Of a stretch of DNA of 64,000 nt, positions 1 through 21,992 are shown piece by piece. This stretch comes from Raja brachyura (Eukaryota). A program made the translations under genes and the position numbers. Where the stretch lies: the NCBI GenBank assembly GCA_963514005.1, contig OY740804.1:4898001-4962000 (forward strand), given 5' to 3'. How positions within the stretch are numbered: position 1 is the stretch's first letter; every line of letters starts with the position of its first letter. The notes under the pieces were generated by a model. It was not told the DNA's origin and searched no databases. It was given only the letters and a program-made list of their open reading frames with translations.

Positions 1-75
1 CGCACCCCTGATCATTCCGAATGTTCACCCGATTCTTCCTGTTCATTTTCTCAAGATGTTTCCTCTCAGTTTCAG

Positions 76-390
76 GTGCGGTGTGGGGGAAGAAATATGT
101 AGGAGGAGTTGTGGGAAGAGCGGTCACAATCGATTGTCACTATGAAGCAGAGTACCGCTCACACACAAAATACTGGTGTCACGGGTGGACTAGCCAGTGT
201 AGAGTTTTAATGGAAACAAATGGGCAACACGGACGGAGAGGAAGAGCATCAATCACAGATAACCCGGCACGAGGAATATTTACTGTGACTGTGGAGGATC
301 TTCGCTCTGGAGATACAGGGTGGTACAGCTGTGGAATTGCTACACCTGACTTGGATCCATTGTTTAACGTTCATCTCCAAGTATCTGACG
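76..390 (+). CDS. Gene A IgV exon, CD300/pIgR-like (MDIR-like) receptor
   Basis: Acceptor tttcag|GT, donor GACG|gtacgt, 315 nt, phase 1-1. VTIDC...KYWC-x6-C...DTGWYSC shows the extra C-C' Cys pair typical of CD300/pIgR/TREM V domains. The leader lies outside the window. Confidence 0.92.
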
Positions 391-1344
391 GTACGTTTAT
401 CAGCGATTGACGACGTCTCCACGACGCATGATCCATGTTTTTTCTCCTAGGAAGGGTCAGGGCAGCACCGATATCCCGAGGCTCCGCAGCAGTGTAGAGA
501 CCTGCGGGAAGCGGGCGGGGGTCGGGAAACCCCACTCATGTTGCTCTCACCCAGTGCGGGCTCGGTCCCACTGAGCGGCCACCCACTTCAAGTGGGACGC
601 TCGGCACATTTTCCTGCCTCTGAACTGTGTTAAATGTCACCCTGTCAGAGGTTTGCATTCCGACTCAAACTAATAATCCGTTGGGAACAGATCACTGAGA
701 AACGAGTGTTACCCGCGGTCTGAATACCCGGAGAATGTTAAACAGGGAATCAGACCCGTGAGTTCAACACACTGCGTTCAATCCTCCCGGGGCAGACCAG
801 CCCGCTCCCCGCTCCCACCTGAGGGGCCAGTCACTCCCTCCCCACCCAGTGGTCTCTCTCTGTGTCTCCCTCTGTCCCGCCAATGCGCCCCCACCCCCAG
901 CAGCCACTCACCACTGCCCACCCACTGCCCGGCAGCCAGCCAGCATCTCCACCTGGCCCAATCTCGGAGGAAATTTGGGTAAAGCTTTCCTAATCAGACC
1001 TTTCAGGAAATTCCGGGCGACCTCCACCTTCCCCGAGTTTCTGGGCTTCTCAGACTGACAATATCTCTCGTTGTCTCCACCCCGATATCAGCACCAATGG
1101 GTTCCCTTCCTGTTGCAGGCCACTTCATCCCAGCACAACTATAGCCTCTCCCTATAGCCACCGAACATTGGACAGGTGTATGACAGGTGAACAAAACCAT
1201 AAGTGCTGGAAGAACATAGCGGGTCAGGTAGCATCTGTGGAGGGAATGGACAAAACCAACTCGAGTCGTGACCCTCTTTCAGACAGATGGAGTGAGGGAG
1301 GAGAAAGCTGGAATTGAGAGATGGGAACGATATCGAGCCTGGTG

Positions 1345-1346
1345 AG

Positions 1347-1381
<35 letters not shown>

Positions 1382-1383
1382 GA
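1345..1383 (+). repeat. (GATA)n microsatellite
   Basis: Pure GATA array. The mirror locus at about 22690-22732 is interrupted. Confidence 0.9.
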
Positions 1384-1961
1384 TGAGGGGATTGATCAAC
1401 AGGCGGGTGGAGTGATATAAGTGAGGAGGAGACCAGATAAGGAGAGAAGAGGAACAGTGAAATGTGAAGCCGGATTGGGGGATCGAGGGGTGGAGGGGAA
1501 CGGGGCGGTATAAAAAGGAGACGGGGGACTCAGAGATGGGAGATGTGACGAGTTTATGGATGTACAAAAGCGGGGATGGTGGAAGGGTGGCTGGGATGGG
1601 GGGGAGCGGTTGGCGATAGTGAGGTATTATTTGAAATCCGTGAATACAATGTTCATACCGTTGCGTTGTCCGATTGTCGAGGGGAATACGAGCCGCTGTT
1701 TCTCTTTCAACATAGTTTTGGCAATGGATGAACCCAAGGACATAAAGGGTGGGATGGGAATGGGAAGGAGACTGAAATGATTAGCAACCAGGATGTCCAG
1801 GCTCGCTTGTGTAAAGGCCGAGGTCATATTGCCAGCACCGAAGGCAGGGGACGAGGTTCGCGTGTACCTCTTCAAAAGTCGAGGTACAAGGGTGCCAGAA
1901 TGGGAGAGTCTTTTATTTTCAGACGTTGACTTTGTATCCATTGTTTGCTCCTTTCCCACAG

Positions 1962-2270
1962 AACCCGTGACTGTTCCTGTGCTTGGATTTTTGTCACCAG
2001 CCAATGTCTCCGGTGTCGGAGGCACAGTGACAGTGTCGTGTAAGTCTGAGCGGGGATCACTTCCCATTAGCTACACCTGGTATGAAAATACCTTAAAGAT
2101 CTCAAATAGCAATAACCTGGATCTACGTTGTCAATCCTTCAAACAACAAAGCCATCAATATTACTGCAAAGCCTCAAATAATCGTGGGACAAGGACCAGT
2201 GAAATGGTCAACGTGGCAGTGCCCAACGTCGGAGCGAATTGCAGTTATGCGGTGCATTTCGGTAACAGTG
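1962..2270 (+). CDS. Gene A IgC2 exon (FcR-like/FCRL-type domain)
   Basis: Acceptor cccacag|, donor G|gtaagt, 309 nt, phase 1-1. EPVTVPVL...VTVSCKSERGSLPISYTWY...YYCKASN. Confidence 0.9.
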
Positions 2271-2907
2271 GTAAGTGCAGGAGGGAATGACTGAATCGCC
2301 AGTTTGATTCCTGGGATATTTTAGTGTTACGGAAAAGATGGATTGGGATGATTCTGAAGACCCCACAAGATTCTGACAGGAAATACATGACTTGATGTTG
2401 AGAGGAATGCTCACAGTAGTTGGGAGTTTGTGGTTAGTGTCACAATAATAAGGATCCATAACTTGGGTCACAGAAGACAAATTTTTTTGTAAACTTTCAG
2501 ACAAATGTTCACCAAATAACCCCGTTAGCTGAAAATTCAAGCTGCTAAAATTCTACCTCCAGCCACGCAAGTTTACTTTGGAGATACAGCATACAGGCCC
2601 GTACGAAGCTTTTCAAAAACGGGGATGGTATGACATGATTACAAAAATATTAATGTGAAATAAGCCTTCATCCGCCTTCCCAGCTGCTGTGACGCTCCAC
2701 CAAGGAACTCTAGATGCTGGTTTATACCAAAGAAGGACAAAATGGTGGAATAACTTAGCAGGTCAGACAGTATCCCTGGATGACATGGATAGGTGACATT
2801 TTGGGTTGAAACCCTTGGGTTCTGACCCGAAACGTCACCTGTTCATTTTCTCCAGGGATGCCACCTGACCTAGCATAACTCCACCATTTTGTATCCTTCT
2901 GCTGATA

Positions 2908-3129
2908 AAAAATAGACAATAGACACTATGTGCAGGAGTAGGCCGTTCAGCCCTTCGAGGCAGCCATTCAATGTGATCATGGCTGATCATCCACAATCAG
3001 TACCCCGTTCCTGCCTTCTCCCCATATCCCCTGACTACTCTATTTTTAAGAGCCCTATCTAGCTCTCTCTTGAAAGTATCCAGAGAATCGGCTTCCACTG
3101 CCCTTTGAGGCAAATAATTCCACACTCCC
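2908..3129 (-). mobile_element. CR1 3' fragment present only in the left arm, flanked by a ~31-bp duplication
   Basis: AACTCCACCATTTTGyATCyTTyTGCTGATA at 2877-2907 and 3130-3160. Confidence 0.75.
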
Positions 3130-3627
3130 AACTCCACCATTTTGCATCTTTTTGCTGATATTTTCTTGTTCCCTGTTGCTCCTCAGCTCCAAATCATAAC
3201 TATTATCCAGCATGTTCAGTCCCTTTCTAACTACTGCATTCATAAGATCCACCCGTAATAACATTGCCCCATCCCTCCAGTAGGTATCTGATCCACTGGA
3301 CTAGATCTCCCTGTACTGGCAAGGCCAGCTATCTGGTCAGAACATCCCCTTGCATTTGTCAGGGCTAAACAGGCTTTGCATTCCCACCAACCCAAGCCCT
3401 TTAAGTGTCCCAGCAGCATCTCAACATCTCTAGAGCTCAAATATGGGACGGAAAGAGAAATTATCAATAAATGTGATCAACAGTTAAGTGTTGGCAGCAG
3501 CAGGAACTTTTTTACACAAAGGGTGGTGGGTGTATGGAACACGCTGCCAGAGGAGGTGGTTGAGGCAGGTACTATTGTAATATTTAAGGAACATTTAGAC
3601 AGGTACATTGATAGGATAGGTTTAGAG

Positions 3628-6135
3628 GTCCAACAAGGCGAATTTAGGGAGCTAGGAGATAAACTTAAAAGTAGGACCTCAAAGGTAATAATCTCTGGAT
3701 TACTGCCAGTGCCACGTGCTAGTCAGAGTAGAAATAGGAGGATATGGCAGATGAATACGTGGCTTGAAAAATGATGCAAGGCGGAGGGATTCAAATTTCT
3801 CGGGCATTGGAACCAGTTCTGGAGGAGGTGGGACCAGCATAAACGGGATGGTCTGCACCTGGGATGGAATGGAATCAATGTCCTTGGGGGAGTGTTTGCT
3901 AGTGCTGTCAGGGAGGATTTAAACTAATGTGGCGGGGGATGGGAGCATGAGCAGAGAGACAGAGGGATGTAAGATGAGGGTAGAAGCAATAGGTAGCAAG
4001 GTGAAAAGTAAACGTAGCAGGCAGAAAAATCCAGGGCAAAAATCAAAAAGGGCCACTTTTCAACATAATTGTATAAGGGGTAAGAGCGTTGTAAAAACAA
4101 GCCTGAAGGCTTTGTGTCTCAATGCAAGGAGCATTCGTAATAAGGTGGATGAGTTGAATGTGCAGATAGTTATTAATGAATATGATATAGTTGGGATCAC
4201 GGAGACATGGCTCCAGGGTGACCAAGGCTGGGAGCTGAACATCCAGGGATATTCAATATTTAGGAGGGATAGACAGAAAGGAAAAGGAGGTGGAGTAGCA
4301 TTGCTGGTTAGAGAGGTGATTAACGCAATAGAAATGAAGGACATTAGCATGGAGGATGTGGAATCGATATGGGTAGAGCTGTGAAACACTAAGGGGCAGA
4401 AAACTCTGGTGGGTGTTGTGTACAGGTTACCTAACAGTAGTAGTGGAGCTGAGGATGGCATCAAACATGAAATTAGAAATGCATGCAACAAAGGTAAAAC
4501 AATTATAATGGGTGACTTCAATCTACATATAGATTGGGTGAATCAAATTGGCAGGGGTGCTGAGGAAGAGGATTTCTTGGAATGTATGCGGGATAGTTTT
4601 CTAAACCAACAAAAAGAACCAACGAGAGAGCAGGCTATTCTAGACTGGGTATTAAGTAATGAGGAAGGGTTAGTTAGCAGTCTTGTTGTGTGTGGCCCCT
4701 TGGGCAAGAGTGACCATTATATGGTTGAGTTCTTCATTAGGATGGAGAGTGACATTGTTAATTCAGAAACAAGGGTTCTGAACTTAAAGAAAGGTAACTT
4801 TGAGGGTATGAGACGTGAATTGGCTAAGATAGACTGGCAAGTGATTCTTAAAGGGTTGACGGTGGATATGCAATGGAAGGCATTTAAAGACTGCATGGAT
4901 GAGCTACAACAATTGTTCATCCCAGTTTGGCAAAATAATAAATCAGGGAAGGTAGTGCATCTGTGGATAACAAGGGAAATCAGGGATAGTATAAAAACAA
5001 AAGATGTGGCATACAAATTAGCCAGAAAAAGCAGCCTACCAGAGGACTGGGAGAAATTCAGAATCCAGCAAAGAGTAGGAGTAAACTGGTCATTTTCAGA
5101 ATGGCAGGCAGTGATTAGTGGGGTACAGCAAGGCTCAGTGCTGGGACACCGGCTATTTACAATATATATTGATCTGGATGAGGGAATTGAATGCAAAATC
5201 TCCAAGTTTGCGGATGACACAAAGCTGGTTGGCAGTGTTAGCTGTGAGGAGGATGCTAGGAGGCTGCAAGGTGACTAGGATAGGTTGGGTGAGTGGGAAA
5301 ATGCATGGCAGATGCAGTATAATGTGGATAAATGTGAGGTTATCCACTTGGGTGGCAAAACCAGGAAAGTAGACTATTATCTGAATAGTGGCCGATTAGG
5401 AAAAGGGAAAATGCAAAGCGACCTGGGTGTCATGGTACACCAGTCGTTGAAAGTAGGCATGCAGGTGCAGCAGGCAGTGAAGAAAGCGAATGGTATGTTG
5501 GCATTCATAGCAAAAGGATTTGAGTACAAGAGCAGGGAGGTTCTACTGCAGTTGGACAGGGTCTTGGTGAGGCCACACCTGGAGTATTGCGTACAGTTTT
5601 GGTCTCCTAATCTGAGGAAAGACATTCTTGCCACAGAGGGAGTACAGAGAAGGTTCACCAGACTGTTACGTGGGATGGCAAGACTTCCATATGAAGAAAG
5701 ACTGGATAGACTCGGCTTGTAGTCGCTGGAATTTAGAAGATTGAGGGGGGATCTTATAGAGACTTACAAAGTTCTTAAGGGGTTTGACAGGCTAGATGCA
5801 GGAAGATTGTTCCTGATGTTGGGGAAGTCCAGAACAAGGGGTTACGGTTTAAGGATAAGGGGGAAGTCTTTTAGGACCGAGATTAGAAAATCATTTTTCA
5901 CACTGAGTGGTGAATCTGTGGAATTCTCTGTCACAGAAGGTAATTGAGGTCAGCTCATTGGCTATATTTAAGAGGGGGTTCAATGTGGCCCTTGTGGTTA
6001 AAGGGATCAGGGGGTATGGAGAGAAGGCAGGTACAGGATACTGAGTTGGATGATCAGCCATGATCATATTGAATGGCGGTGCAGGCTCGAAGGACCGAAT
6101 GGCCTACTCATGCACCTATTTTCTATGTTTCTATG
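3628..6135 (+). mobile_element. CR1 LINE, degenerate and internally deleted, in a gene A intron
   Basis: ORF1 esterase end (DGLHL), APE endonuclease (NARSIRNK, ITETWL, MGDFN, SDH), jump to the RT C-terminus (FADDTK), TTCTATGT tail. Stops and frameshifts present. Confidence 0.92.
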
Positions 6136-6754
6136 GTGAGCCCGATATCTGAGGAAGGATGTGCTGGTTCTGGAGAGGGTCCAGAGGAGGTTTACAAGAA
6201 TGATCCCAGGAATGAGTGGGTTAACATATGATGAGTGTTTGACAGCACTGGGCCTGTACTCGCTGGAGTTTAGAAGGATGAGGGAGGCCCTCATTGAACT
6301 TTACTGAATATGGAAAGGCCTGGATAGAGTTGATGTGGAGAAGATGTTTCCACTAGTGGGGTAATCTAGGGCCAGAGGTCATAGCCTCCGAATTAAAGAG
6401 CGTTTCTTTAGGAAGGAATTCTTAAGTAAGAGGGTAGTAAATCTGAGGAATTTATTGCCACAGAAGGTTGTGGAGGCCAAGTCAATGGATATTTTAAGGC
6501 GGAGATAGTACGGGAGTCAGGGGTTATGAGCAGAAGGCAGGAGAATAGGGTTAGGAGGGAGAGATAGATCAGCCGTGATTGAATGACGGAGTAGACTTGA
6601 TGGGCCGAATGGCCTAATTCTAATCCTATCACTTATGAACATGAACTGATGAAGTCGATGTGCCAAATGGCCTAATTCTGCTCCTATGACTTCTGCACTT
6701 ATGATTGCAAGTGAAAAGCAGGTGATGTTGAATTGTATTTCCTTGACCCAACAG

Positions 6755-6875
6755 AACCTGAAAAGACTGGTAGCACTTCTAAGCATGAACCAATGATGAC
6801 TACACCGTTTGCAAGTACAGAAAAAAAATCCAATGATAATCAAAATGACACCACCCGATCCACTTGCACGGAATG
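6755..6875 (+). CDS. Gene A Ser/Thr-rich stalk exon
   Basis: Acceptor ccaacag|, weak donor TG|gtacaa, phase 1-2, which fits both neighbours. EPEKTGSTSKHEPMMTTPFASTEKKSNDNQNDTTRSTCTE. Confidence 0.72.
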
Positions 6876-7997
6876 GTACAATAATGTTATTACTGCTGTT
6901 GTGATTGGCTCTGCTTCCTTCTGAGAATAAATTGGAAGAGAATTTCCTCTTTCATTGGCTAGTTAAGTGCCTCAGAGTATTGACTTCAATCTATTCAAAT
7001 GTTGAGATCGGAGTGCGCACAAGAATTGAAAGGAATGATCTAAGATCCAGCATGCACTCAATGGGCCAAATGGACTCTAGCTTTTTTTTGGTTTTTAGTT
7101 TTAGAGAAACAGCACGGACACAGGCCCTTCCACCCTACAAGTCCATGACAGCCTTAGATCAGTCTGAAGAAGTGTCTCAACACGAAAAACGTCATCTGGT
7201 CCTTCTCTCCAGAGGTGCTGTGTGACCCGCTGAGTTACTCCAGCTTTTTGTGTCGATCTTCGATCCCCCCGTTAACACTAGTTCTATGTTGTACCACTTT
7301 ATTGTTCAATCCCTACACATTCAGGATTGAACCCAGGTCTCTGGCGCCTTAAGAGAGCTGCTCTATCAAATGTGCCAATGTAATGAAAAGAAGATGAGAA
7401 AGTAATTGTTGATTCATCTCTTGATTTTGTACACCTCCATAAGATCACCCCTCGTCCTCCTGCTCTCCAAGGAATAATGACCTAGCTTGCTCAACCTTTC
7501 CCTATAGCTCAGGCCCTCGAGTCCCAGCACCATCTTCGTAAATCTTCTCTGCACCCTTTCCAGCTTGACAAAATCTTTCCTATAACATGGTGACCAGAAA
7601 TGCACACAATACCCTAAATGTGATGAGGTTCCAGGATTATGCAGAATTACATCTGGTCACATAGGATTGAAGGCACAGAAAAGATCAACTAGGCTGGTCC
7701 ATGCTGGTGTTTACAGACCACTCGTCACTTCTCCCATCTTTTCCTATCTAACTTTATCAACGCTAGACACAAAATGCTGGAGTAACTCAGCGAGTCAGGC
7801 AGCATCTCTGAAGAACATGGATAGGTGAGGTTTTGGGTCGAGATCCTGGACGGTGGAATTTCCCAGCTGAACTCGCTGGGCTCTGTTGCTGTACCCTGCT
7901 CCATGTAGAGATTTCACAGCAATCAGGATATGAATGTTTCCAACACAAACTAGTCTGTTTTCTCCCACTGATTCTGTATCTTTCCCCCTTTGCTCAG

Positions 7998-8088
7998 TTC
8001 CATGACATGGAAGGTGGGACGCTGGCTGTACTTTGCTCTGCTTGGGATCTGCAGTATCTCAGTCTCATTGTTCACAAGTATAAGGAAG
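7998..8088 (+). CDS. Gene A transmembrane exon with TM arginine
   Basis: Polypyrimidine tract plus gctcag|, donor AAG|gtatgt, phase 2-0. SMTWKVGRWLYFALLGICSISVSLFTSIRK. Confidence 0.85.
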
Positions 8089-8848
8089 GTATGTTTTGCA
8101 GAGATCATCAGAATCGCTGACTGCTTCCAAATGATGTCCATTAATACTTTCAAACATGCTGATAAAATAAAACAAACGGAAAGTGTTTAGATAAAGTATT
8201 TCACAAATTCGGGCCAAACCAATGCTCTACGAAAAAGATATCAATAGGCCTTGACAAGATGTTTGTGTGCTTGATGTAGATGTTGTACAGTCATTGAAGC
8301 AGAGAGAAATACAGCATGGAAACAGGCCCTTTGGCCCACTGTAACCATGCAGGCCATCTTATCTGACCCCCAGTTTCCTCCCCTCTATTTTCAGTTTGAA
8401 GAAGGGTCCCGACCTGAAATGTCACCCATCCTTTTTCCCCAAAGATCTTGCCTGACTCGCTGAGTTACTCCAGCACTTTGTGTCTATCAGGCCATTGATC
8501 ACCCGTACGCATTAGTTCTGTGTTATCCCATTCTCACGTCCCAAATCCCAACACACTCGGGGAAATTCACATTGGCCAAGTAACCTGTAAACCCGCAAGT
8601 CTTTGGGATGTGGGAGGAAACCAGAGCTCGCGGAGAAAACCCACATGGCCACAGCGAGAACATGCAAACTCCACACAGATAGCACCAAAGTCAAAATCCA
8701 AGCAAATTCTTGGAAGCTGTGAGGCAGCAGCTCTATCAGTTGCATCACTGTGCCAATTGGAAGCAGAATTCTGTTGTGAGTGGCCTTGTGAAATAAAGTA
8801 CAATTCCCTGAGTTAATGAATCTGATGACTTCAACATTTTTTTTACAG

Positions 8849-8884
8849 GGACCCAATGAACCGAAACCTCACAGCTTGCCGTAG
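8849..8884 (+). CDS. Gene A terminal exon, short cytoplasmic tail
   Basis: Acceptor ttttttttacag|, phase 0, GPNEPKPHSLP-TAG. No tyrosine motif. Confidence 0.75.
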   Translation, partial: GPNEPKPHSLP

Positions 8885-11608
8885 AAGGCAGAATGAAGAT
8901 CCACTGGTGATAGTGACTGAGAAACTACTCTCCAATGATCGTTATTATTTTGAATGAATTAATAGAAACATAGAAAATAGCCAGCACCGCCATTCAACAT
9001 GATCATGGCTGATCATCCAACTCAGTATCTTGTTCCTGCCTTCTCTCCATACCCCCTGATCCTTTTAGCCACAAGGCCCACATCTAACTCCCTTTTAAAT
9101 ATAGCCAATTAAGTGGCTTCAATTACCTTCTTTGGCAGAGAATTCCACAGATTCACCACTCTCTGTGTGAAAAAAAAAATTCTCATCTCAGTCCTAAAAG
9201 ACTTCCCCCTTATCCTTAAACTGTGATCCCTTGTTCTGGACTTCCCCAACATCGGGAACAATCTAGCCTGTCCAACCCCTTAAGAATTTTGCAAGTTTCT
9301 ACAAGATCCCCCTCAATCTTCTAAATTCTAGCGAGCACAAGCAATGAATGAATGAATACTTTATTGTCACATTTGACAAATCACAGTGAAATTCTTTGCT
9401 TGCCAACCCAATGTATGCAAATAGTCACCCATAAAGGGTGCTGACAAAGTGTTTTTCATTTTGCTTTCATAATAGACTGCACAGAATTAATGTTTCTTCT
9501 GCTAAAACAATTAACTTAGTTCACACATTATTCAATAGACAATAGGTGCAGGGGTAGGCCCTTCGAGCCAGCACCGTCATTCAATGTGGTCATGGCTGAT
9601 CATCCCCAATCAGTTCCCCGTTCCTGCCTTCATAACTTTTTCCTCGTCCTCCAGGTTCAAGAACAGCTTCTCAGCAGCAACAATTAGGCTTTTGAACACT
9701 GCACACTAACCTCAACTATCAAGTATGGACAGTGTTTGGTTGCACTGAAGACATCAGTTTGTTTTTGTCCTTATTGGACATTAACTAATTCATTTTTGTA
9801 CATTATACATTAACTGTGTGCATTGTGTTTACAAGCACAATGAGGGGAATAGATAGGGTATGTGTTGGAAGGAACTGCAGATGCGTGTTCAAACCGAAGA
9901 TAGACACAAAAACCTAGAGTTACTCATCGGGTCAGGCAGCACCTCTGGAGCAAAGGGATAGGTGATGTTTTGAGCCGAGACCTTTCTTCGGACAGAGGTA
10001 GGGGAAAGGGAAACAAGGGAAACAAGTCTCTTACCCAGAGTATTGGAATCAAGACTCAGGGGGCAAGGCTTCAGGTGAAAGCGAAAAGTTTTAATAGGAT
10101 CCTGAGGGGCATCATTTTTTTACACAGTGAGTTGTGGGAGTATGGAATGAGCTAACTGATGAGGTAGTTGAGGCAGGTGCTACAAAAACACTTTAAAGGC
10201 ATTTGGACAGTTACATGAATAGGACTGGTTTAGAAGGAGATGGACCAAACGCTGGCAGGAGGAACTAGAGTAGATGGGGCATCTTGGTCGACGTTGGCAA
10301 GTTGGGCTGAAGGGTCTGTTTCCATGCTGTATAACTCCATAAATCTCCAGATTCGTTGTGCTACTCAAACAAAGCATTATATTGCCCCCCTGTCGGTACA
10401 TATGACAATCAAGCACTCTTGACGCAGGCGTTTAACAAACCAAAATCAACCAAATGTCCTCGACATGGATTCAGTTCCAGTGCATAAAAAAAGTTATGAG
10501 AAGAATATACCTTGCACTATATCTGTTTTGAGTACTGTTGATATCAATCTTGTAATTGGAGATAGTGTGATTGTCATTGGTTCTTTATAAAAAGATATGT
10601 TATTGTTAATGTTTAATGTTTTAGGTGTCATTCCTAATGTCACTGTATGTCACATTGCACTTGTGGGCGGAGCACCAAGGCAAATTCCTTGTATGTGAAT
10701 ACTTGGCCAATAAACCTATTCATTCATAAACCCATTCATTCATCATTCATTCATAAGATTAGTCAAGTTATATTGAGGCAAGGAAATAAAATTAAGTCTC
10801 AACTGTTTTCACATGCAGTGAATAAAGATAACAAGATTGTCAGATGGAACCCATTGCTTTGAGTAAATGCCAATTAGCTTGAGAGATATGGTGACTATTA
10901 TTCAGTGGAATTGGACGTCTTAGTTGAGTTTAGTTTAGAGACACAGCATGAAACAGGACCTTTGGCCCACCTAGTTCACGCCAATCAGCGATCCCACCCG
11001 CACACCAGCACTATCCTGCACACACTAGGGTCAAATTACAGTTTACCAAAGCCAATTAACCTACAAACCTGCACGTCTTTGGAGTGTGGGAAGAAACCAA
11101 AGATCTCAGAGAAAACCCACTTGGTCATGGGGAGAACATACAAACTCCGTACAGACAGCACCCGTAGTCAGGATCGAACCCGTGTCTCTGGCGCTGAAAT
11201 GAAGGCAGCAACTCCAGCACTGTACACTCGTACACCCTATGTATCATTTATATTTTTGTGTATCTACGTGTATGTGCCTGTGATGTTGCCACAAGCGTGA
11301 TTTTCATTGTACCTGCACCTCACCATACGTGCATATAAGAATAAGCCAGACTTGACTTGAAAACTGCTCAGCAAAGTATATTACAATGATGTTCTCATGA
11401 GAAAAAGTACTTCCAGAACAATTGATCTGATGGGATGTCATAACTTATAGTTTCCCTCTTCTAAATATTCTTCACAGTTAAAACAATGAGGCATTTCCAG
11501 GATTGAATACAATTTATTCCTCATGACTGCAATGTCATGCTACACAACACAAAATAATAAGTCATTGCTATGAATGCTAGCAACATTGATTAAATGGCAC
11601 CTCTACTG

Positions 11609-12127
11609 AGTGAATAGATTCTTGCTATTGAGGGAGTGCAGCTTAGGTTTACAAGGTTAATTCCCGGGATGGTGGGATTGTCATATGCTGAGAGAATGGA
11701 GCAGCTGGGCTTGTACACTCTGGAGTTCAGAAGGATGAGAGGGAATCTCATTAAAACATATAAGATTGTTAAGGGCTTGGACACACTAGAGGCAGAAAAC
11801 ATGTTCCCGATGTTGGGGAACCAGGGGCCACAGTTTAAGAATAAGGAGTAAGCCATTTAGAATGGAGACGAGGAAACACTTTTTCTCACAGAGAGTGGTG
11901 AGTCTGGAATTCTCTGCCTCAGAGGGCGGTGGTGGCAGGTTCTGTGGATGCTGATTCTGTGGATTCTGTGGAAGAGAGAGCTAGATAGGGCTCTTAAAAA
12001 TAATGGAGTCAGGGGATATGGGGAGAAGGCAGGAACGGGGTACTGATTGGGGATGATCAGCCATGATCACATTGAATGGCGGTGCTGGCTTGAAGGGCCT
12101 ACCTCTGCACCTATTGTCTATTGTCTG
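11609..12127 (+). mobile_element. CR1 3' fragment spanning the spacer/right-arm boundary
   Basis: ORF2 C-terminal peptide RFTRLIPGM...LGLYTLEFRRMRG and ATTGTCT tail. Confidence 0.85.
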
Positions 12128-12778
12128 TTGAATAATGAGTGAACTAAGTTAATTGTTTTAGCAGAAGAAACATTAATTCTGCGCAGTCTATTATGAAAGC
12201 AAAATGAAAAACACTTTGTCAGCACCCTTTATGGGTGACTATTTGCATACATTGGGTTGGCAAGCAAAGAATTTCACTGTGACTTGTCAAATGTGACAAT
12301 AAAGTATTCATTCATTCATTGCTTGTGCTTGCTAGAATTTAGAAGACTGAGGGGGGATCTTGTAGAAACTTGCAAAATTCTTAAGGGGTTGGACAGGCTA
12401 GATTGTTCCCGATGTTGGGGAAGTCCAGAACAAGGGGTCACAGTTTAAGGATAAGGGGGAAGTCTTTTAGGACCGAGATGAGAATTTTTTTTTTCACACA
12501 GAGAGTGGTGAATCTGTGGAATTCTCTGCCAAAGAAGGTAGTTGAAGCCACTTCATTGGCTATACTTCAAGGGAGTTAGATGCGGCCTTTGTGGCTAAAC
12601 GGATCAGGGGGTATGGAGAGAAGGCAGGAACAAGATACTGAGTTGGATGATCAGCCATGATCATGTTGAATGGCGGTGCAGGCTATTTTCTATGTTTCTA
12701 TTAATTCATTCAAAATAATAACGATCATTGGAGAGTAGTTTCTCAGTCACTATCACCAGTGGATCTTCATTCTGCCTT

Positions 12779-12814
12779 CTACGGCGAGCTGTGAGGTTTC
12801 GGTTCATTGGGTCC
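12779..12814 (-). CDS. Gene B terminal exon, short cytoplasmic tail
   Basis: Mirror of 8849-8884. GPNEPKPHSSP-TAG. Confidence 0.72.
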   Translation of the reverse strand, partial: GPNEPKPHSSP

Positions 12815-13574
12815 CTGTAAAAAAAATGTTGAAGTCATCAGATTCATTAACTCAGGGAATTGTACTTTATTTCACAAGGCCACTCACAACAGAATTCTGC
12901 TTCCAATTGGCACAGTGATGCAACTGATAGAGCTGCTGCCTCACAGTGTCCAAGAATTTGCTTGGATTTTGACTTTGGTGCTATCTGTGTGGAGTTTGCA
13001 TGTTCTCGCTGTGGCCATGTGGGTTTCCTCCGCGAGCTCCGGTTTCCTCCCACATCCCAAAGACTTGCGGGTTTACAGGTTACTTGGCCAATGTGAATTT
13101 CCCCGAGTGTGTTGGGATTTGGGACGAGAGAATGGGACAACACAGAACTAATGCGTACAGGTGATCAATGGCCTGATAGACACAAAGTGCTGGAGTAACT
13201 CAGCGAGTCAGGCAAGATCTTTGGGGAAAAAGGATGGGTGACATTTCAGGTCGGGACCCTTCTTCAAACTGAAAATAGAGGGGAGGAAACTGGAGGTCAG
13301 ATAAGATGGCCTGCAGGGTCGCAGTGGGCCAAAGGGCCTGTTTTCATGCTGTATTTCTCTCTGCTTCAATGACTGTACAACATCTACATCAAGCACACAA
13401 ACATCTTGTCAAGACCTATTGATATCTTTTTCGTAGAGCATTGGTTTGGCCCGAATTTGTGAAATACATTATCTAAACACTTTCCGTTTGTTTTATATTA
13501 TCAGCATGTTTGAAAGTATTAATGGACATCATTTGGAAGCAGTCAGCGATTCTGATAATCTCTGCAAAACATAC

Positions 13575-13665
13575 CTTCCTTGTACTTGTGAACAATGAGA
13601 CTGAGATACTGCAGATCCCAAGCAGAGCGAAGTACAGCCAGCATCCCACCTTCCATGTCATGGAA
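13575..13665 (-). CDS. Gene B transmembrane exon (Arg replaced by Cys)
   Basis: Mirror of 7998-8088 with intact splice sites. SMTWKVGCWLYFALLGICSISVSLFTSTRK. Confidence 0.82.
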
Positions 13666-14778
13666 CTGAGCAAAGGGGGAAAGATACAGAATCAGTGGGA
13701 GAAAACAGACTAGTTTGTGTTGGAAACATTCATATCCTGATTGCTGTGAAATCTCTGCATGGAGCAGGGTACAGCAACAGAGCCCAGGGAGTTCAACTGG
13801 GAAATTCCACCGTCCAGGATCTCGACCCAAAACTATCCATGTTCTTCAGAGATGCTGCCTGACTCGCTGAGTTACTCCAGCATTTTGTGTCTAGCGTTGA
13901 TAAAGTTAGATAGGAAAAGATGGGAGAAGTGACGAGTGGTCTGTAAACACCAGCATGGACCAGCTTAGTTGATCTTTTCTGTGCCTTCAATCCTATGTGA
14001 TCAGATGTAATTCTGCATAATCCTGGAACCTCATCACATTTAGGGTATTGTGTGCATTTCTGGTCACCATGTTATAGGAAAGATTTTGTCAAGCTGGAAA
14101 GGGTGCAGAGAAGATTTCCGAAGATTGCTGGGACTCGAGGGCCCGAGCTATAGGGAAAGGTTGAGCAAGCTAGGTCATTATTCCTTGGAGAGCAGGAGGA
14201 CGAGGGGTGATCTTATGGAGGTGTACAAAATCAAGAGATGAATCAACAATTACTTTCTCATCTTCTTTTCATTACATTGGCACATTTGATAGAGCTGCTC
14301 TCTTAAGGCGCCAGAGACCTGGGTTCGATCCTGAATGTGTAGGGATTGAACAATAAAGTGGTACAACATAGAACTAGTGTTAACGGGGGGATCGAAGATC
14401 GACACAAAAAGCTGGAGTAACTCAGCGGGTCACACAGCACCTCTGGAGAGAAGGACTAGATGACGTTTTTCGTGTTGAGACACTTCTTCAGACTGATCTA
14501 AGGCTGTCATGGACTTGTAGGGTGGAAGGGCCTGTTTCCGTGCTGTTTCTCTAAAACTAAAAACCAAAAAAAGCTAGAGACCATTTGGCCCATTGAGTGT
14601 ATGCTGGATCTTAGATCATTCCTTTCAATTCTTGTGCGCACTCCGATCGCAACATTTGAATCGATTGAAGTCAATACTCTGAGGCACTTAACTAGCCAAT
14701 GAAAAAGGAAATTCTCTTCCAATTTATTCTCATAAGGATGCAGAGCCATTCACAACAGCAGTAATAACATAATTGTAC

Positions 14779-14899
14779 CATTCCGTGCAAGTGGATCGGG
14801 TGGTGTCATTTTGATTATCATTGGATTTTTTTTCTGTACTTGCAAACGGTGTAGTCATCATTGGTTCATTCTTAGAAGTGCAACCAGTCTTTTCAGGTT
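14779..14899 (-). CDS. Gene B stalk exon
   Basis: Mirror of 6755-6875. EPEKTGCTSKNEPMMTTPFASTEKKSNDNQNDTTRSTCTE. Confidence 0.7.
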
Positions 14900-15517
14900 C
14901 TGTTGGGTCAAGGAAATACAATTCAACATCACCTGCTTTTCACTTGCAATCATAAGTTCAGAAGTCATAGGAGCAGAATTAGGCCATTTGGCACATCGAC
15001 TTCATCAGTTCATGTTCATAAGTGATAGGATCAGAATTAGGCCATTCGGCCCATCAAGTCTACTCCGTCATTCAATCATGGCTGATCTATCTCTCCCTCC
15101 TAACCTTATTCTCCTGCCTTCTGCTCATAACCCCTGACTCCCGTACTATCTCCGCCTTAAAATATCATTGACTTGGCCTCCACAACCTTCTGTGGCAATA
15201 AATTCCTCAGATTTACTACCCTCTTACTTAAGAATTCCTTCCTAAAGAAACGCTCTTTAATTCGGAGGCTATGACCTCTGGCCCTAGATTACCCCACTAG
15301 TGGAAACATCTTCTCCACATCCACTCTATCCAGGCCTTTCCATATTCAGTAAAGTTCAATGAGGGCCTCCCTCATCCTTCTAAACTCCAGCGAGTACAGG
15401 CCCAGTGCTGTCAAACACTCATCATATGTTAACCCACTAATTCCTGGGATCATTCTTGTAAACCTCCTCTGGACCCTCTCCAGAACCAGCACATCCTTCC
15501 TCAGATATCGGGCTCAC

Positions 15518-18030
15518 CATAGAAACATAGAAAATAGGTGCATGAGTAGGCCATTCGGTCCTTCGAGCCTGCACCGCCATTCAATATGATCATGGCTGAT
15601 CATCCAACTCAGTATCCTGTACCTGCCTTCTCTCCATACCCCCTGATCCCTTTAGCCACAAGGGCCATATTGAACTCCCTCTTAAATATAGCCAATGAAC
15701 TGGCCTCAACTACCTTCTGTGGCAGAGAATTCCACAGATTCACCACTCTGTGTGAAAAATGATTTTCTCATCTCGGTCCTAAAAGACTTCTCCCTTATCC
15801 TTAAACTGTAACCCCTTGTTCTGGACTTCCCCAACATTAGGAACAATCTTTCTGCATCTAGCCTGTCGAACCCCTTAAGAATTTTGTAAGTCTCTATAAG
15901 ATCCCCCCTCAATCTTCTAAATTCCAGCGAGTACAAGCCAAGTCTATCCAATCTTTCTTCATATGGAAGTCTTGCCATCCCAGGTATCAGTCTGGTGAAC
16001 CTTCTCTGTACTCTGTGGCAAGAACGTCTTTCCTCAGATTAGGAGACCAAAACTGTACGCAATCCTCCAGGTGTGGCCTCACCAAGACCCTGTCCATCTG
16101 CAGTAGAACCTCCCTGCTCTCTAGTACTCAAATCCTTTTGCTATGAATGCCAACATACCATTCGCTTTCTTCACTGCCTGCTGCACCTGCATGCCTACTT
16201 TCAACGATTGGTGTACCATGACACCCAGGTCGCCTTGCATTTCCCCTTTTCCTAATCGGCCGCCAATCAGATAATAGTCTACTTTCCTGTTTTTGCCACC
16301 CAAGTGGATAACCTCACATTCATCCACATTATACTGCATCTGCCATGCATTTGCCCACTCACCCAACCTATCCTAGTCACCTTGCAGCCTCCTAGCATCC
16401 TCCTCACAGCTAACACGGCCAACCAGCTTTGTGTCATCCGCAAACTTGGAGATTTTGCATTCAATTCCCTCATCTAGATCATTAATATATATTGTAAATA
16501 GCTGGGGCCCCAGCACAGAGCCTTGAGGTACCCCACTAATCACAGCCTGCCATTCTGAAAATGACCCGTTTACTCCTATTCTTTGCTGGATTCTGAATTT
16601 CTCCCAGTCCTCTGGTAGGCTGCTTTTTCTGGCTAATTTGTATGCTTCATCTTTTGTTTTGATACTATCCCTGATTTCCCTTGTTATCCACAGATGCACT
16701 ACCTTCCCTGATTTATTATTTTACCAAACTGGGATGAACAATTGTTGTAGCTCATCCATGCAGTCTTTAAATGCCTTCCATTGCATATCCACTGTCAACC
16801 CTTTAAGAATCACTTGCCAGTCTATCTTAGCCAATTCACGTCTCATACCCTCAAAGTTACCTTTCTTTAAGTTCAGAACCCTTGTTTCTGAATTAACAAT
16901 GTCACTCTCCATCCTAATGAAGAACTCAACCATATAATGGTCACTCTTGCCCAAGGGGCCACGCACAACAAGACTGCTAACTAACCCTTCCTCATTACTC
17001 AATACCCAGTCTAGAATAGCCTGCTCTATCGTTGGTTCCTCTAAATGTTGGTTTAGAAAACTATCCCGCATACATTCCAAGAAATCCTCTTCCTCAGCAC
17101 CCCTGCCAATTTGATTCACCCAATCTATATGTAGATTGAAGTCACCCATTATAATTGTTTTACCTTTGTTGCATGCATTTCTAATTTCATGTTTGATGCC
17201 ATCCCCAGCTCCACTACTACTGTTAGGTAGCCTGTACACAACTCCCACTAGCGTTTTCTGCCCCTTAGTGTTTCGCAGCTCTACCCATATCGATTCCACA
17301 TCCTCCATGCTAATGTCCTTCCTTTCTATTGCGTTAATCACCTCTCTAACCAGCAATGCTACTCCACCTCCTTTTCCTTTCTGTCTATCCCCCCTGAATA
17401 TTGAATATCCCTGGATGTGCAGTTCCCAGCCTTGGTCACCCTGGAGCCATGTCTCCGTGATCCCAACTATATCATATTCATTAATAACTATCTGCACATT
17501 CAACTCATCCACCTTATTACGAATGCTCCTTGCATTGAGACACAAAGCCTTCAGGCTTGTTTTTACAACACTCTTACCCCTTATACAATTATGTTGAAAA
17601 GTGGCCCTTTTTGATTTTTGCCCTGGATTTTTCTGCCTGCTATGTTTACTTTTCACCTTGCTACCTATTGCTTCTACCCTCATCTTACATCCCTCTGTCT
17701 CTCTGCTCATGCTCCCATCCCCCTGCCACATTAGTTTAAATCCTCCCTGACAGCACTAGCAAACACTCCCCCAAGGACATTGATTCCATTCCATCCCAGG
17801 TGCAGACCGTCCTGTTTGTGCTGGTCCCACCTCCTCCAGAACTGGTTCCAATGCCCGAGAAATTTGAATCCCTCCGCCTTGCATCATTTTTCAAGCCTCG
17901 TATTCATCTGCCATATCCTCCTATTTCTACTCTGACTAGCACGTGGCACTGGTAGTAATCCAGAGATGTTTACCTTTGAGGTCCTACTTTTAAGTTTATC
18001 TCCTAGCTCCCTAAATTCGCCTTGTTGGAC
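15518..18030 (-). mobile_element. CR1 LINE, mirror copy in a gene B intron
   Basis: Same internal deletion as 3628-6135. Endonuclease ORF 16721..17731 is open for 336 aa. Confidence 0.92.
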
Positions 18031-20996
18031 CTCTAAACCTATCCTATCAATGTACCTGTCTAAATGTTCCTTAAATATTACAATAGTACCTGCCTCAACT
18101 ACCTCCTCTGGTAGCGTGTTCCATACACCCACCACCCTTTGTGTAAAAAAGTTCCTGCTGCTGCCAACACTTAACTGTTGATCACATTTATTGATAATTT
18201 CTCTTTCTGTCCCATATTTGAGCTCTGGAGATGTTGAGATGCTGCTGGGACACTTAAAGGGCTTGGGTTGGTGGGAATGCAAAGCCTGTTTAGCCCTGAC
18301 AAATGCAAGGGGAAGTTCTGACCAGAGAGCTGGCCTTGCCAGGACAGGGAGATCTAGTCCAGTGGATCAGATACCTACTGGAGGGATGGGGCAATGTTAT
18401 TACAGGTGGATCTTATGAATGCAGTAGTTAGAAAGGAGCTTGCTGAGACTGAACATGCTGGATAATAGTTATGATTTGGAGCTGAGGAGCAACAGGGAAC
18501 AAGACGTTTCGGGTCAGAACCCAAGGTGACGTTTCGGGTCAGAACCCAAGGGGTTCAACCCAAAATGTCACCTTATCATGTCATCCAGGGATACTGTCTG
18601 ACCTGCTGAGTTATTCCACCATTTTGTCCTTCTTTGGTATAAACCAGCATCTAGAGTTCCTTGGTGGAGCGTCACAGCAGCTGGGAAGGCGGATGAAGGC
18701 TGCAGCAGAAAAGGATCTCCGGTCGTCTTGGACTCCATGACACTGGATCCCGACCCAGATCTGTCAAGGACCGTGGTGTGGCTGTCTGTGAACCAGTCTC
18801 CTTACGTTAAACAAAGTCACGCACAGTTGTCCTCCATATAAGGAATAACATACTGGCGACACCCATGGTCAGCCATAACTGAGGGGGTCTAAAAAGAAGA
18901 GTTCTTTATTATCAGATATCAGCAGAAGTTGTTGCTGGGTGTCCGAAAAGCTGTACTGAAATAGAGATTGGCTTTCTATTATTTGGGATGGTTGTAATTG
19001 AGATAATAAGTAGATTATTATGTACAATTAATATATAATAGCACACGAGTAGGTGACGTTTTGGATCTGGACCTTCTTCAGATATATAATGGGTGGTGGG
19101 GAGAGAAAGCTGGAAGAGAGGTACCTAGCAAATGATAGGTGGATACGACTGGGGGGGGGGGTGGGGGTATTTGATTGGAAAATTGTTGTGCAAAGACAGA
19201 GATGAAATGACAAAAGGCTGTGGGATAAAGAGTTAGGGAGAGAAGAGAAGTGAAATTTGAAGTCAGTAGAAGTGAATTAGGTGGCATAGAAACATAGAAA
19301 ATAGATGCAGGAGGACGCCATTCAGTTCTTGGAACCAGCACCGCCATTCAATATGATCATGTCTGATCAGTACCTCGTTCTGGCTTTTTCCCCATATCCC
19401 TTGATTCCCTTAGCCCAAAGAGCTAAATCAAACTCTCTCTTCAGTGAATTGGCCTCCACTGCCTTCAGTGGCAGAGAACTCCACGGATTCACAGCTCTCT
19501 GGCTGAAAATGTGTTTCCTTATCTCAGTCCAAAATGGACTACCCCTTATTTTTAAACTGTGACCCCTGGTTCTGGACTCCTCCAACATCGGGGACATTTT
19601 CCCTGCATCTACCCTGTCCAATACTCTAAGAATTTTATATGTTTCTGTAAGATCCCTTCTCATCCTTCTAAATTCCAGCGAATACAAGCCCTGTTGGCCC
19701 ATTCTTTCATCATATCTCAGTCCCGCAATCTCGGGAATTAACCTGGTTAATTTCTAAGCTGCACTCCCTCAATAGCAATAATGTCCTTCCTTAAATTGGA
19801 AGACCAAAATTGCACACCATTCTCTAGGTGCGGTCTCACCTGGGCCCTGTGGAACTCTGTGGACTCTGAATTTCTCCCAGACCTCTGATAGGCTGCTTTT
19901 TCTGGCTAATTTGTATGCTTCATCTTTTGTTTTGATACTATCCCTGATTTCCCTTTTTATCCACGGATGCACTACCTTCCCTGATTTATTATTTTGCCAA
20001 ACTGGGATGAACAATTGTTGTAGTTCATCCATGCAGTCTTTAAATGCCTTCCATTGCATGTCCACCGTCAACCCTTTAAGAATCACTTGCCAGTCTATCT
20101 TGGCCAATTCACGTCTCATACCCTCAAAGTTACCTTTCTTTAAGTTCAGAACCCTTGTTTCTGAATTAACAATGTCACTCTCCATCCTAATGAAGAACTC
20201 AACCATATTATGGCCACTCTTGCCCAAGGGGCCACGCACAACAAGAAACGTCACCTATTCATATTCCCCACAGATGCTGCCTGACCCGCTGAGTTACTCC
20301 CGCACTTTGTGTCTATTTTCCCTTAACCCATCTGCCCAAGCCCACTCTCCCCCCTCCTTTCCTATGTTCCTTTCCACCCATAAACCTCTCTCTGCCTTTA
20401 CATTTCACTCCTCTTTCAAATCTGCTCTACTTATCTACATGCATTTTTCTTCTTAACTTTTTAGTCATAGAATGATGCAGTGTGGAAACAGGCCCTTCAG
20501 CCCAACTTGCCCACACCGACCAACATGTCCCATCTATGTTGGTCGGTGTGGGCACTATCCATGTACGTGTCCAATGTCTCTTAAACATTAGGATAGTCCC
20601 AGCCTTAACTACCTCATCTGGCAGCTCGTTCCATACACCCACCACCCTTTGTGTGAAAAAGATTCCTATTAATTTCTGAAATATTAGTCATACATTTGGT
20701 GCAGAAATGCTGCAAAAAATAAGGGTCAGAATACATCAGACAGCATCTAAAACCCCTGAGCTTCCAAGGCCCTTAAGCAGGCCCTGGACCCCGTCATCGA
20801 GGGACTTCCCGCTTCATGCTCATGGTGTGCGCAGCGCGCACATTATTTCACATTAATATTTTTGCAATCCGGTCATACCACCCCCCTTTTTGAAAAGCTT
20901 CGTACGGGCCTGTATGCTGTATCTCTAAAGTAAACTTGTGTGGCTGGAGGTAAAATTTTAGCAGCTTGAATTTTCGGCTAACGGGGCTATTTGTGT

Positions 20997-21755
20997 ACAT
21001 CGAAACATAGAAATTAGGTGCAGGAGTAGGCCATTCGGCCCTTCGAGCCTGCACCGCCATTCAATATGATCATGGCTGATCATCCAACTCAGTATCCCGT
21101 CCCTGCCTTCTCTCCATACCCTCTGATCCCCTTAGCCACAAGGGCTACATCTAACTCCCTCTTAAATATAGCCAATGAACTGGCCTCAACTACCCTCTGT
21201 GGCAGAGAGTTCCAGAGACCCACCACTCTCTGTGTGAAAACATTCCTTCTCATCTCGGTCCTAAAGGATTTCCCCCTTATCCTTAAGCTGTGACCCCTTG
21301 TCCTGGACCTCCCCAACATCGGGAACAATCTTCCTGCATCCAGCCTGTCCAACCCCTTAAGAATTTTGTACGTTTCTATAAGATCCCCTCTCAATCTCCT
21401 AAATTCTAGAGAGTATAAACCAAGTCTATGCAGTCTTTGTTCATAAGACAGTCCTGACATCCCAGGAATCAGTCTGGTGAACCTTCTCTGCACTCCCTCT
21501 ATGGCAATAATGTCCTTCCTCAGATTTGGAGACCAGAACTGCATGCAATACTGTAGGTGTGGCCTCACCAAGACCCTATACAACTGAAGTAGAACCTCCC
21601 TGTTCCTATACTCAAATCCTTTTGCTATGAAAGCTAACATACCATTCGCTTTCTTCACTGCCTGCTGTACCTGCTTGCCTACTTTCAATGACTGGTGTAC
21701 CATGACACCCAGGTCGCGCTGCATCTCCCCTTTTCCTATTCGGCCTCCATTTATC
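20997..21755 (-). mobile_element. 5'-truncated CR1 insertion present only in the right arm
   Basis: ORF 21089..21724 is the CR1 ORF2 C-terminus plus tail. The left arm at about 2510 has the uninterrupted site. Confidence 0.88.
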
Positions 21756-21992
21756 TGAACATTTGTCTGAAAGTTTACAAAATAATTTGTCTTCTGTGAC
21801 CTAAGTTATGGATCCTTATTATTGTGACACTAACCACAAACTTCCAACTACTGTGAGCATTCCTCTCAACATCATGTATTTCCTGCCAGAATCTTGTGGG
21901 GTCTTCAGAATCATCCCAATCCATCTTTTCCCGTGACACTAAAATATCCCAGGAATCAAACTGGCAATTCAGTCATTCCCTCCAGCACTTAC

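What the first reader, a model, noticed from the sequence alone, without database searches (positions are those of the whole stretch)
76..390. IgV exons of A and B: 18 amino-acid-changing versus 3 silent codon differences
Seen (hand count against 23687-24001): 28 of 315 nt differ; 18 codons change residue, several by 2-3 nt (AAA/GTC, AGC/GAA, TTG/AAG), and only 3 are silent. A sample of about 125 nt of 3' sequence near the palindrome centre differs at one base. Changes cluster at the N-terminus and in predicted loops (HT/RP, SQ/EH, ME/VK, TPDL/APGK). Inference: diversifying selection on a ligand- or pathogen-binding face. An alternative is conversion from a third paralog, since the flank just downstream of the V exon is also more diverged.
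Basis: partly seen in the sequence, partly recalled or inferred. Interest (0 to 1): 0.75.

Follow-up and report, generated by a model that had tools for sequence, protein, structure and literature searches.

The report
Skate immune receptors diversify ligand pocket
These two exons belong to a cluster of CD300-like (MDIR) immune receptor genes, likely of a skate, whose copies show statistical signs of positive selection around the predicted ligand pocket; this is a familiar immune-gene pattern, and the 18-to-3 count on its own is not significant.

Summary
The counts are right: 28/315 nt differ, giving 18 residue changes and 3 silent codons. A and B are V exons of MDIR2-like (CD300/pIgR-type) receptors in a ~1 Mb batoid cluster with 44 close V exons. 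The pair alone does not show selection (dN/dS 1.6-2.0, p 0.15-0.30). The family does: M2a vs M1a LRT 74, about 16% of sites at omega ~3. The signal survives multi-hit, synonymous-rate and recombination controls, and the C2 exons lack it by the same test (LRT 3.5). Selected sites match the CD300lf lipid/metal pocket (5 of 8 positions, p=2e-4). A/B differences fall on sites found selected without A-D (5 of 6, p=4e-4). The exon (8.9%) is more diverged than noncoding arm DNA (2.7%), mostly through B-lineage changes. Conversion is also likely: the inhibitory paralog D shares A's exons (3.5%) but not its introns (~10%), as in paired receptors. A and B lack the family leader; an intact leader from another receptor class lies upstream of each. 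Expression and ligand are untested. Verdict: a real, known kind of evolution in a little-studied family.

The parts
76..390 (+). Gene A IgV exon (phase 1-1, 104 codons; CD300/pIgR-type with the extra C34-C41 cysteine pair)
   Evidence: 80% identical to skate MDIR2 (P0078); model matches mouse CD300lf, TMq 0.89
1962..2270 (+). Gene A second Ig (C2-like) exon
   Evidence: matches MDIR2 and P0082
6755..6875 (+). Gene A stalk exon (phase 1-2)
   Evidence: matches P0082
7998..8088 (+). Gene A transmembrane exon with the K-V-G-R-W basic motif of short-tailed MDIRs
8849..8884 (+). Gene A short tyrosine-free cytoplasmic exon, with stop
   Evidence: same tail as P0082 and P0098
12779..12814 (-). Gene B short cytoplasmic exon, with stop
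13575..13665 (-). Gene B transmembrane exon; the conserved Arg is replaced by Cys
   Evidence: 16 of 17 such TM exons that cover the position keep Arg
14779..14899 (-). Gene B stalk exon
21993..22301 (-). Gene B C2-like exon
23687..24001 (-). Gene B IgV exon
29743..29880 (-). Dead V' exon fragment (stop codons, cut off by a repeat-like insertion) between B's leader and V; copies lie upstream of A and C
40878..40974 (-). Intact 97-nt phase-1 leader exon of another receptor class, the likely first coding exon of B. A's copy is at C24:4886423, 11.6 kb upstream of the window.
   Evidence: same peptide begins P0109 and P0111; no MDIR-type leader upstream of A or B
1..24076 (.). Inverted segmental duplication: arm A 1-9631, arm B 12025-24076, continuing outside these limits

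Best explanation
A and B are two recent duplicates in a large cluster of CD300-like MDIR receptor genes, predicted to encode short-tailed activating receptors, and their V exons differ mainly at positions that positive selection likely diversifies across the whole family, around the predicted ligand pocket. Shown: gene anatomy, family membership by sequence, a codon class with omega ~3 in V that the same test does not find in C2, and A/B differences concentrated on those codons. Inferred: the pocket between the CC' and FG (CDR3) loops, with the adjoining G and A' strands, binds a lipid head group or a pathogen mimic of it, as in CD300lf, and pathogens drive the turnover. Inferred: exon-limited gene conversion copies the ectodomain between the inhibitory MDIR2 orthologue D and activating copies A and C, as in paired receptors, while B escaped part of this and gathered private changes. 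The A/B gap is therefore selection plus unequal conversion. Inferred: A and B use a promoter and leader captured from a neighbouring receptor class.
For: Family: M2a vs M1a LRT 74.2 (16% of sites, omega 2.95), M8 vs M7 79.3, M8 vs M8a 69.2, on 42 V exons. The signal holds with double/triple-hit rates (LRT 37-58) and F1x4 frequencies (68), with separate trees for 3 or 4 segments (47, 41), with synonymous-rate variation (LRT 35; largest of 158 null simulations 11.4) and against mosaic-tree nulls (real 76; largest of 21 nulls 20). C2 control: M2a vs M1a 3.5, p=0.18, on 25 exons. Leave-out test: with A-D removed, LRT is 51.6; 5 of 6 sites at posterior >0.9 differ between A and B (p=0.0004), 7 of 17 at >0.5 (p=0.007), and only 1 of 39 constrained sites differs. 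Pocket: the FG loop aligns without gaps to mouse CD300lf; 5 of 8 non-cysteine positions matching the CD300lf phosphocholine/metal contacts named in PMC6166816 have M8 posterior >=0.9, against 11 of 104 overall (p=0.00024). B lineage: 14 of 17 in-frame B-only nucleotides are derived; codons 6, 30, 39 and 40 of B occur in none of the other 41 exons. Conversion: A vs D differ by 3.5% in V and 3.6% in C2 but 9-16% in the intron stretches from -599 to -25 and 391-1300; 4 synonymous differences are seen where 15.5 are expected (p=0.0006); PHI p=0.005 and <0.001 at windows of 60 and 100 nt. D carries an MDIR2-type leader, TM and ITIM-like tail.
Against: The pair, and the A-D quartet, are not significant by themselves (quartet omega 2.0, p=0.08). 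Whole-exon omega is 0.93. In the CC' loop the synonymous rate is raised as much as the nonsynonymous one (alpha 1.94, beta 2.04); only the FG loop is clearly separated (1.12 vs 2.56). Mosaic nulls exceeded the nominal 5% threshold in 7 of 21 runs, so nominal p-values are too small. C2 is not free of signal: M8 vs M8a gives 4.6, and A/B C2 has 12 nonsynonymous vs 1 synonymous difference. PHI at window 30 is not significant (p=0.86). A-D divergence is low in some introns too (4.0% at -950 to -600; 0.9-5.9% around C2). The CD300lf metal-binding Asp position is Asp in only 16 of 42 exons, so lipid binding may not be general. B has lost the TM Arg, C's leader donor is mutated and D's V has a 1-nt deletion in this assembly, so some of these copies may be decaying.
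Confidence: 0.72

Rival explanations
1. Conversion and time only: A's and C's V exons were overwritten by the inhibitory paralog D, and B kept an older V. The 8.9% A/B gap then reflects the older D-versus-ABC split (~9-10%) and needs no acceleration on B.
For: B vs D is 8.6% in V, like the D-vs-ABC introns. A, C and D share derived Met45. A and D are near-identical over 108-257. The A/B synonymous count (4-5) fits both ages: 2.2 are expected at background, p=0.07-0.18.
Against: Only 1 of 17 B-only nucleotides is ancestral in B, 14 are derived and 2 ambiguous; an old split should load both lineages. It does not explain the family-wide omega ~3 class or why the differences sit on independently inferred selected codons.
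Confidence: 0.15
2. B (and perhaps A) is a decaying pseudogene: relaxed constraint (omega ~1) plus short conversion tracts from other paralogs gives the pattern.
For: Pairwise omega is not distinguishable from 1. There is no family leader, a dead V' exon lies in the first intron, and the TM Arg is lost in B. Codons 45, 54 and 57 of B match the family consensus, a possible short tract.
Against: All six predicted exons of B are open and in compatible phase, with an intact alternative leader and donor. Only 1 of 39 constrained codons differs. Neutral decay would not triple the exon's divergence relative to noncoding DNA. No tract survives multiple testing.
Confidence: 0.08
3. The family signal is an artefact of recombination, multi-nucleotide mutation or local mutation hot spots in the loops.
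For: Recombination is detected. Multi-hit models fit better and shrink the LRT from 74 to 37-58. The CC' loop has a raised synonymous rate. The models are my own implementation, and some fits stopped unconverged.
Against: Each control was run separately and left LRT >= 35. The C2 exons in the same cluster lack the signal by M2a/M1a. The sites match an externally defined pocket.
Confidence: 0.05

Closest known systems
Modular domain immune-type receptors (MDIR2, MDIR3, MDIR5) of the clearnose skate Rostroraja eglanteria
   Same: A's V is 80% identical to MDIR2 and 69% to MDIR3 and MDIR5. V + C2 ectodomain as in MDIR2; TM of the MDIR5 type. A multigene family with activating and inhibitory forms (PMC3031540, passages).
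   Different: A and B combine an MDIR2-type ectodomain with a short-tailed TM, and have a leader from another receptor class instead of the MDIR leader. None of the 111 relatives fetched joins that leader to an MDIR V. I found no paper on selection in MDIRs.
Mammalian CD300 family (CD300lf/CLM-1, CD300a/c)
   Same: Best single-domain sequence and fold matches (TMq 0.89, 40% identity). Extra CC' cysteine pair, and an ungapped FG loop ending L-D-P in A. Conversion between an inhibitory and an activating ectodomain is reported for CD300A/C (PMC12447643, passages).
   Different: CD300 ectodomains are single V domains (recalled); here there is a C2 exon and about 44 V exons. Orthology was not tested, and the metal-binding Asp is variable.
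Paired receptors under pathogen pressure (Xenopus and human CEACAM; SIRP, Siglec, LILR and Ly49 recalled)
   Same: Ligand domains homogenised by conversion between opposite-signalling partners, with diversifying selection on the ligand domain (PMC5112662, abstract).
   Different: No pathogen ligand is known here, and the signalling of these proteins is untested.
Polymeric Ig receptor domain 1
   Same: Same V subtype; most relatives are auto-named 'pIgR-like'.
   Different: Lower per-domain score than CD300lf (54 vs 76 bits); no five-V architecture in A or B; immunoglobulin binding untested.

Membership tests
MDIR (skate modular domain immune-type receptors) | V domain of CD300/pIgR type closely related to named MDIRs | tested here: met
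   80% to MDIR2, 69% to MDIR3 and MDIR5
MDIR (skate modular domain immune-type receptors) | Modular V and C2 exons followed by stalk and TM | tested here: met
   comparison with P0078, P0025, P0054
MDIR (skate modular domain immune-type receptors) | Multigene cluster with activating- and inhibitory-type members | tested here: met
   44 close V exons, 18 short-tail-type TM exons and 9 tyrosine-motif tails in the stretches fetched
MDIR (skate modular domain immune-type receptors) | MDIR-type leader exon (typical of members; not known to me to be defining) | tested here: not met
   A profile finds 29 such leaders in the cluster (21 were its training set) but none upstream of A, B or C; a different leader is present
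MDIR (skate modular domain immune-type receptors) | Expression in leukocytes as spliced transcripts | not testable with these tools
   needs RNA reads
CD300 family (works-like comparison) | IgV fold with a second disulfide pair in the CC' loop | tested here: met
   C34 and C41 invariant in 42 of 42 exons; fold match; the bond itself is inferred
CD300 family (works-like comparison) | Metal-binding Asp in the CDR3/FG loop | tested here: inconclusive
   Asp93 is present in A and B and aligns with CD300lf Asp98, but only 16 of 42 exons have Asp (8 more Glu)
CD300 family (works-like comparison) | Calcium-dependent phospholipid binding | not testable with these tools
   needs a binding assay
CD300 family (works-like comparison) | Orthology or synteny with mammalian CD300 | not tested
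   no cross-vertebrate tree or synteny analysis was run; A and B are not filed as CD300
Paired activating/inhibitory receptors | Near-identical ectodomains on opposite-type TM/tail modules | tested here: met
   A (basic TM, short tail) vs D (ITIM-like tail): 96.5% in V and 96.4% in C2
Paired activating/inhibitory receptors | Ectodomain homogenised by conversion (exon closer than introns, silent sites included) | tested here: met
   4 synonymous differences vs 15.5 expected, p=0.0006; tract ends were not mapped with significance
Paired activating/inhibitory receptors | Opposite signalling and a shared ligand | not testable with these tools
   needs cell assays

The most novel reading that the evidence does not exclude
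A and B are young counter-receptors assembled by exon shuffling from three parents: promoter and leader from a different CD300-like class, a V-C2 ectodomain kept matched by conversion to the inhibitory MDIR2, and an activating TM/tail from a third gene. They are expressed in a new cell type, and their lipid pocket is re-tuned in an arms race with a pathogen that mimics the host ligand of MDIR2. This would be a paired-receptor decoy system caught at birth in a cartilaginous fish.
Probability: 0.25. Interest if true: 0.62.

Novelty: new member of a known kind. Interest (0 to 1): 0.36.

Why it matters
Diversifying selection and conversion in paired Ig-superfamily receptors are well known, so a specialist would not be surprised. 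The value is in the setting. MDIRs are barely studied: one paper in the held library uses the name, and I found no selection analysis of them. The selected codons line up with the cleft that mouse CD300lf uses for phosphocholine and that a virus mimics. That gives a testable short list of residues and suggests the CD300-type pocket has been a pathogen contact site in cartilaginous fish as well. The captured leader is a concrete example of how these modular receptors may be built.

Tried and rejected
1) The pairwise dN/dS as evidence: rejected, not significant; the quartet test is also short of significance. 2) One conversion patch covering B's exon and its downstream flank: rejected; the two excesses lie on different lineages, and the best matches to either flank are still A, B and C. 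3) A single donor for B: none after correction for 120 triplets. 4) Y-type palindrome homogenisation between the arms: not needed, as C elsewhere is as close to A as B is. 5) A, B and C as leaderless pseudogenes (my reading): dropped when the other-class leader was found; it still holds for C, whose donor is mutated. 6) B as a fusion with the truncated two-V gene upstream: possible but less direct; that gene's last exon ends in phase 2 and a nearer leader exists. 7) A putative small exon at about 1119-1186: no frame compatible with V and C2 that I could find; left out. 8) Sequencing runs: no RNA holder listed; laying four runs on 1-2400 gave only contig fragments of mixed paralogs and no usable allele data. 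9) No Pfam scan of my own was obtained; the V-set assignment rests. 10) Three look-ups of earlier scan findings returned nothing. 11) The original MDIR papers were not in the search results and were not read; no supplements were read. No complex was predicted, as no partner is known.

Full report
Observation. The window is G000:C24:4898001-4962000 of a 2.7-Gb genome. Exon A (76-390, +) and exon B (23687-24001, -) are both 315 nt, flanked by AG and GT, phase 1-1. They differ at 28 nt: 17 in-exon residue changes, a changed split codon and 3 silent codons. They lie in an inverted duplication whose arms are 94-97% identical, with large indels. Over 12,698 aligned noncoding bases the arms differ at 2.65%, and none of 38 noncoding 315-nt windows exceeds 18 differences, so the exon is more diverged than its surroundings (p=7e-8). 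The 18:3 ratio is not significant, because about three quarters of sites are nonsynonymous: dN 0.10, dS 0.054-0.063, p 0.15-0.30.

What it is. The V domain is 80% identical to clearnose-skate MDIR2. The named relatives are all cartilaginous fishes, the closest being skates and other batoids, so the organism is probably a skate (inference). The best single-domain solved relative is mouse CD300lf, by sequence and by fold (AlphaFold model, mean pLDDT 75; TMq 0.89). The genome search gave 70 matches, 44 of them full-length close V exons within C24:4.90-5.90 Mb; 42 are open and 2 frameshifted. I fetched 4.778-5.242, 5.37-5.94 and 6.08-6.11 Mb; 5.242-5.37 and 5.94-6.08 Mb were not read. These stretches hold 18 short-tail-type TM exons and 9 tyrosine-motif tails. 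A and B each have V, C2, stalk, TM and a short tyrosine-free tail, all open and in phase, like Amblyraja P0082. B alone has Cys for the TM Arg that 16 of 17 such exons keep.

First exon. A profile of MDIR leader exons finds 29 in the cluster but none upstream of A, B or the third copy C. Each of the three instead has, 12-19 kb upstream on the right strand, a 96-98% copy of the promoter region and 97-nt phase-1 leader of a different receptor class. The same peptide starts five annotated proteins of other skates. It is intact in A and B (window 40878-40974 for B); C's donor is mutated. A dead V' fragment lies between leader and V. That A and B are spliced from this leader is an inference; none of the 111 proteins fetched has this combination.

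Selection across paralogs. I wrote a codon-model likelihood (GY94-type, F3x4, IQ-TREE topology, branch lengths re-optimised, naive empirical Bayes; not PAML). The set was 42 sequences: the 42 open exons minus one identical copy, plus D with its broken codon as a gap; the other frameshifted exon was left out. M0 gives omega 0.93; M2a vs M1a 74.2 (16% of sites at 2.95); M8 vs M7 79.3; M8 vs M8a 69.2. Sites at M8 posterior >=0.9 are 6, 7, 38, 39, 40, 88, 89, 91, 92, 95 and 97. The controls were run one at a time. Multi-hit rates gave LRT 58, 44 and 37 (two null fits unconverged) and F1x4 gave 68. Separate trees per segment gave 47 and 41 (some fits unconverged). An alpha-beta grid gave 35, against a maximum of 11.4 in 158 null simulations. 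Mosaic-tree nulls reached at most 20 in 21 runs against 76 for the data, though 7 of 21 passed the nominal threshold. The C2 control used 25 of 35 exons (9 broken or with donors my rule missed, 1 identical; A-D clipped 9 nt short) and gave M2a vs M1a 3.5 (p=0.18) and M8 vs M8a 4.6. The FG loop is the most robust region; in the CC' loop synonymous rates are also high.

Do the A/B differences reflect this? With A-D removed, the other 38 exons still give LRT 51.6. A and B differ at 5 of the 6 sites with posterior >0.9 (p=0.0004) and at only 1 of 39 constrained sites. This is the test the raw count could not give. Most of the gap is B's: 18 B-only vs 3 A-only sites among A-D, and 14 of the 17 in-frame ones are derived.

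Structure. The model places 35-42 in the CC' loop and 88-94 in the FG loop. In PMC6166816 (passages read), phosphocholine and the murine norovirus capsid bind the same cleft between CDR3 and CC' of CD300lf, formed by Tyr34, Cys36-Cys44, Gln41, Arg42, Trp89 and Met100, with metal held by Lys94, Gly96 and Asp98. The FG region aligns without gaps at offset +5, giving 84, 89, 91, 93 and 95. The CC' positions 32, 38 and 39 were placed from the cysteines and may be off by one. Five of these 8 positions are in the 11-site set (p=0.00024). Codons 6, 7 and 97 lie outside this list; standard V-set topology puts the A' and G strands on the same sheet (established knowledge, not measured on the model).

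Conversion. PHI detects recombination at two of three window sizes. The clearest case is D (C24:5634853, minus), the MDIR2 orthologue with ITIM-like motifs. It differs from A by 3.5% in V and 3.6% in C2 but by 9-16% in the introns flanking V beyond the conserved acceptor region; introns near C2 and at -950 to -600 are closer. Silent differences are depleted too (4 vs 15.5 expected, p=0.0006). This is the paired-receptor pattern reported for CD300A/C (PMC12447643, passages) and Xenopus CEACAMs (PMC5112662, abstract). No donor for B survives correction. The raised flank at 391-900 is mainly A-lineage, and B vs C is at background there (15/507), so it is not an extension of B's exon changes. D's V carries a 1-nt deletion in a G run in this assembly; D-like contigs in 3 of 4 laid runs have an extra base at or beside that place, so it may be an assembly error or a private allele.

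How it most likely works. The cluster evolves by duplication, exon shuffling and loss. Activating copies are kept similar to an inhibitory partner by exon-limited conversion, while selection turns over the residues lining the ligand cleft, probably because microbes engage that cleft (inferred by analogy to CD300lf; no ligand is known). A tracks D; B has moved away at the same codons that vary in the rest of the family. I give this 0.72, conversion-and-time alone 0.15, decay 0.08 and artefact 0.05.

Novelty. MDIRs are described (PMC3031540, passages; the primary papers were not available to me). Searches (listings seen) showed no selection or conversion analysis of them; the library lacks most subscription papers, so this is weak evidence of absence. 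The process is of a well-known kind. Verdict: real; new members of a known family under a known mode of evolution; interest 0.36. The bolder reading, a three-parent counter-receptor with a captured promoter, has probability about 0.25 and would merit about 0.6.

Noticed in passing
window 45386-52640 (minus strand): A two-V receptor gene of another class (orthologue of P0103/P0104) keeps leader, both V exons and a short stalk exon but has lost its TM and tyrosine-motif exons at a breakpoint near 45223. Complete copies are at C24:4838987-4850120 and 5175384-5160543, and another copy without a TM match is at 5203533-5199094. It could give a secreted form or splice onto B's exons.
   Followed up: partly
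window 40878-40974 (minus); C24:4886423, ~5054468, 5192385, 5220308: Five copies of the leader and promoter region of the receptor class at C24:4815883 and 5232205 lie apart from that class's V exons; three stand upstream of A, B and C.
   Followed up: partly
window 13575-13665 (minus): B's transmembrane Arg is replaced by Cys, unique among 17 such exons; this may alter adaptor binding.
   Followed up: partly
G000:C24:5634540-5634853 (L074): The inhibitory MDIR2 orthologue D has a 1-nt deletion in a G run of its V exon; D-like contigs of 3 of 4 other runs have an extra base there.
   Followed up: partly
window 1962-2270 vs 21993-22301: The C2 exons of A and B differ by 12 nonsynonymous and 1 synonymous change, a more skewed ratio than in V, although C2 shows little family-wide signal.
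   Followed up: partly
G000:C24:5074468-5094666: Three tandem ~6.7-kb copies at 99% identity stretch the V-C2 intron of paralog C to about 22 kb; a recent expansion or an assembly artefact.
   Followed up: no
G000:C24:5033367 (L006/L042): Paralog E lacks the first canonical Ig cysteine (Tyr at position 20), and the 3' third of its V exon resembles A/C/D more than its sister G (p~0.005-0.008 uncorrected).
   Followed up: no
window 901-1300: Intronic stretch with only 4 differences in 400 nt between A and B, containing an AG...GT-bounded segment with no compatible reading frame found.
   Followed up: partly
G000:C24:5806000-5890000: Three tandem ~32-35 kb units of a multi-V gene with near-identical or identical V exons (e.g. 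5842722 = 5877710).
   Followed up: no
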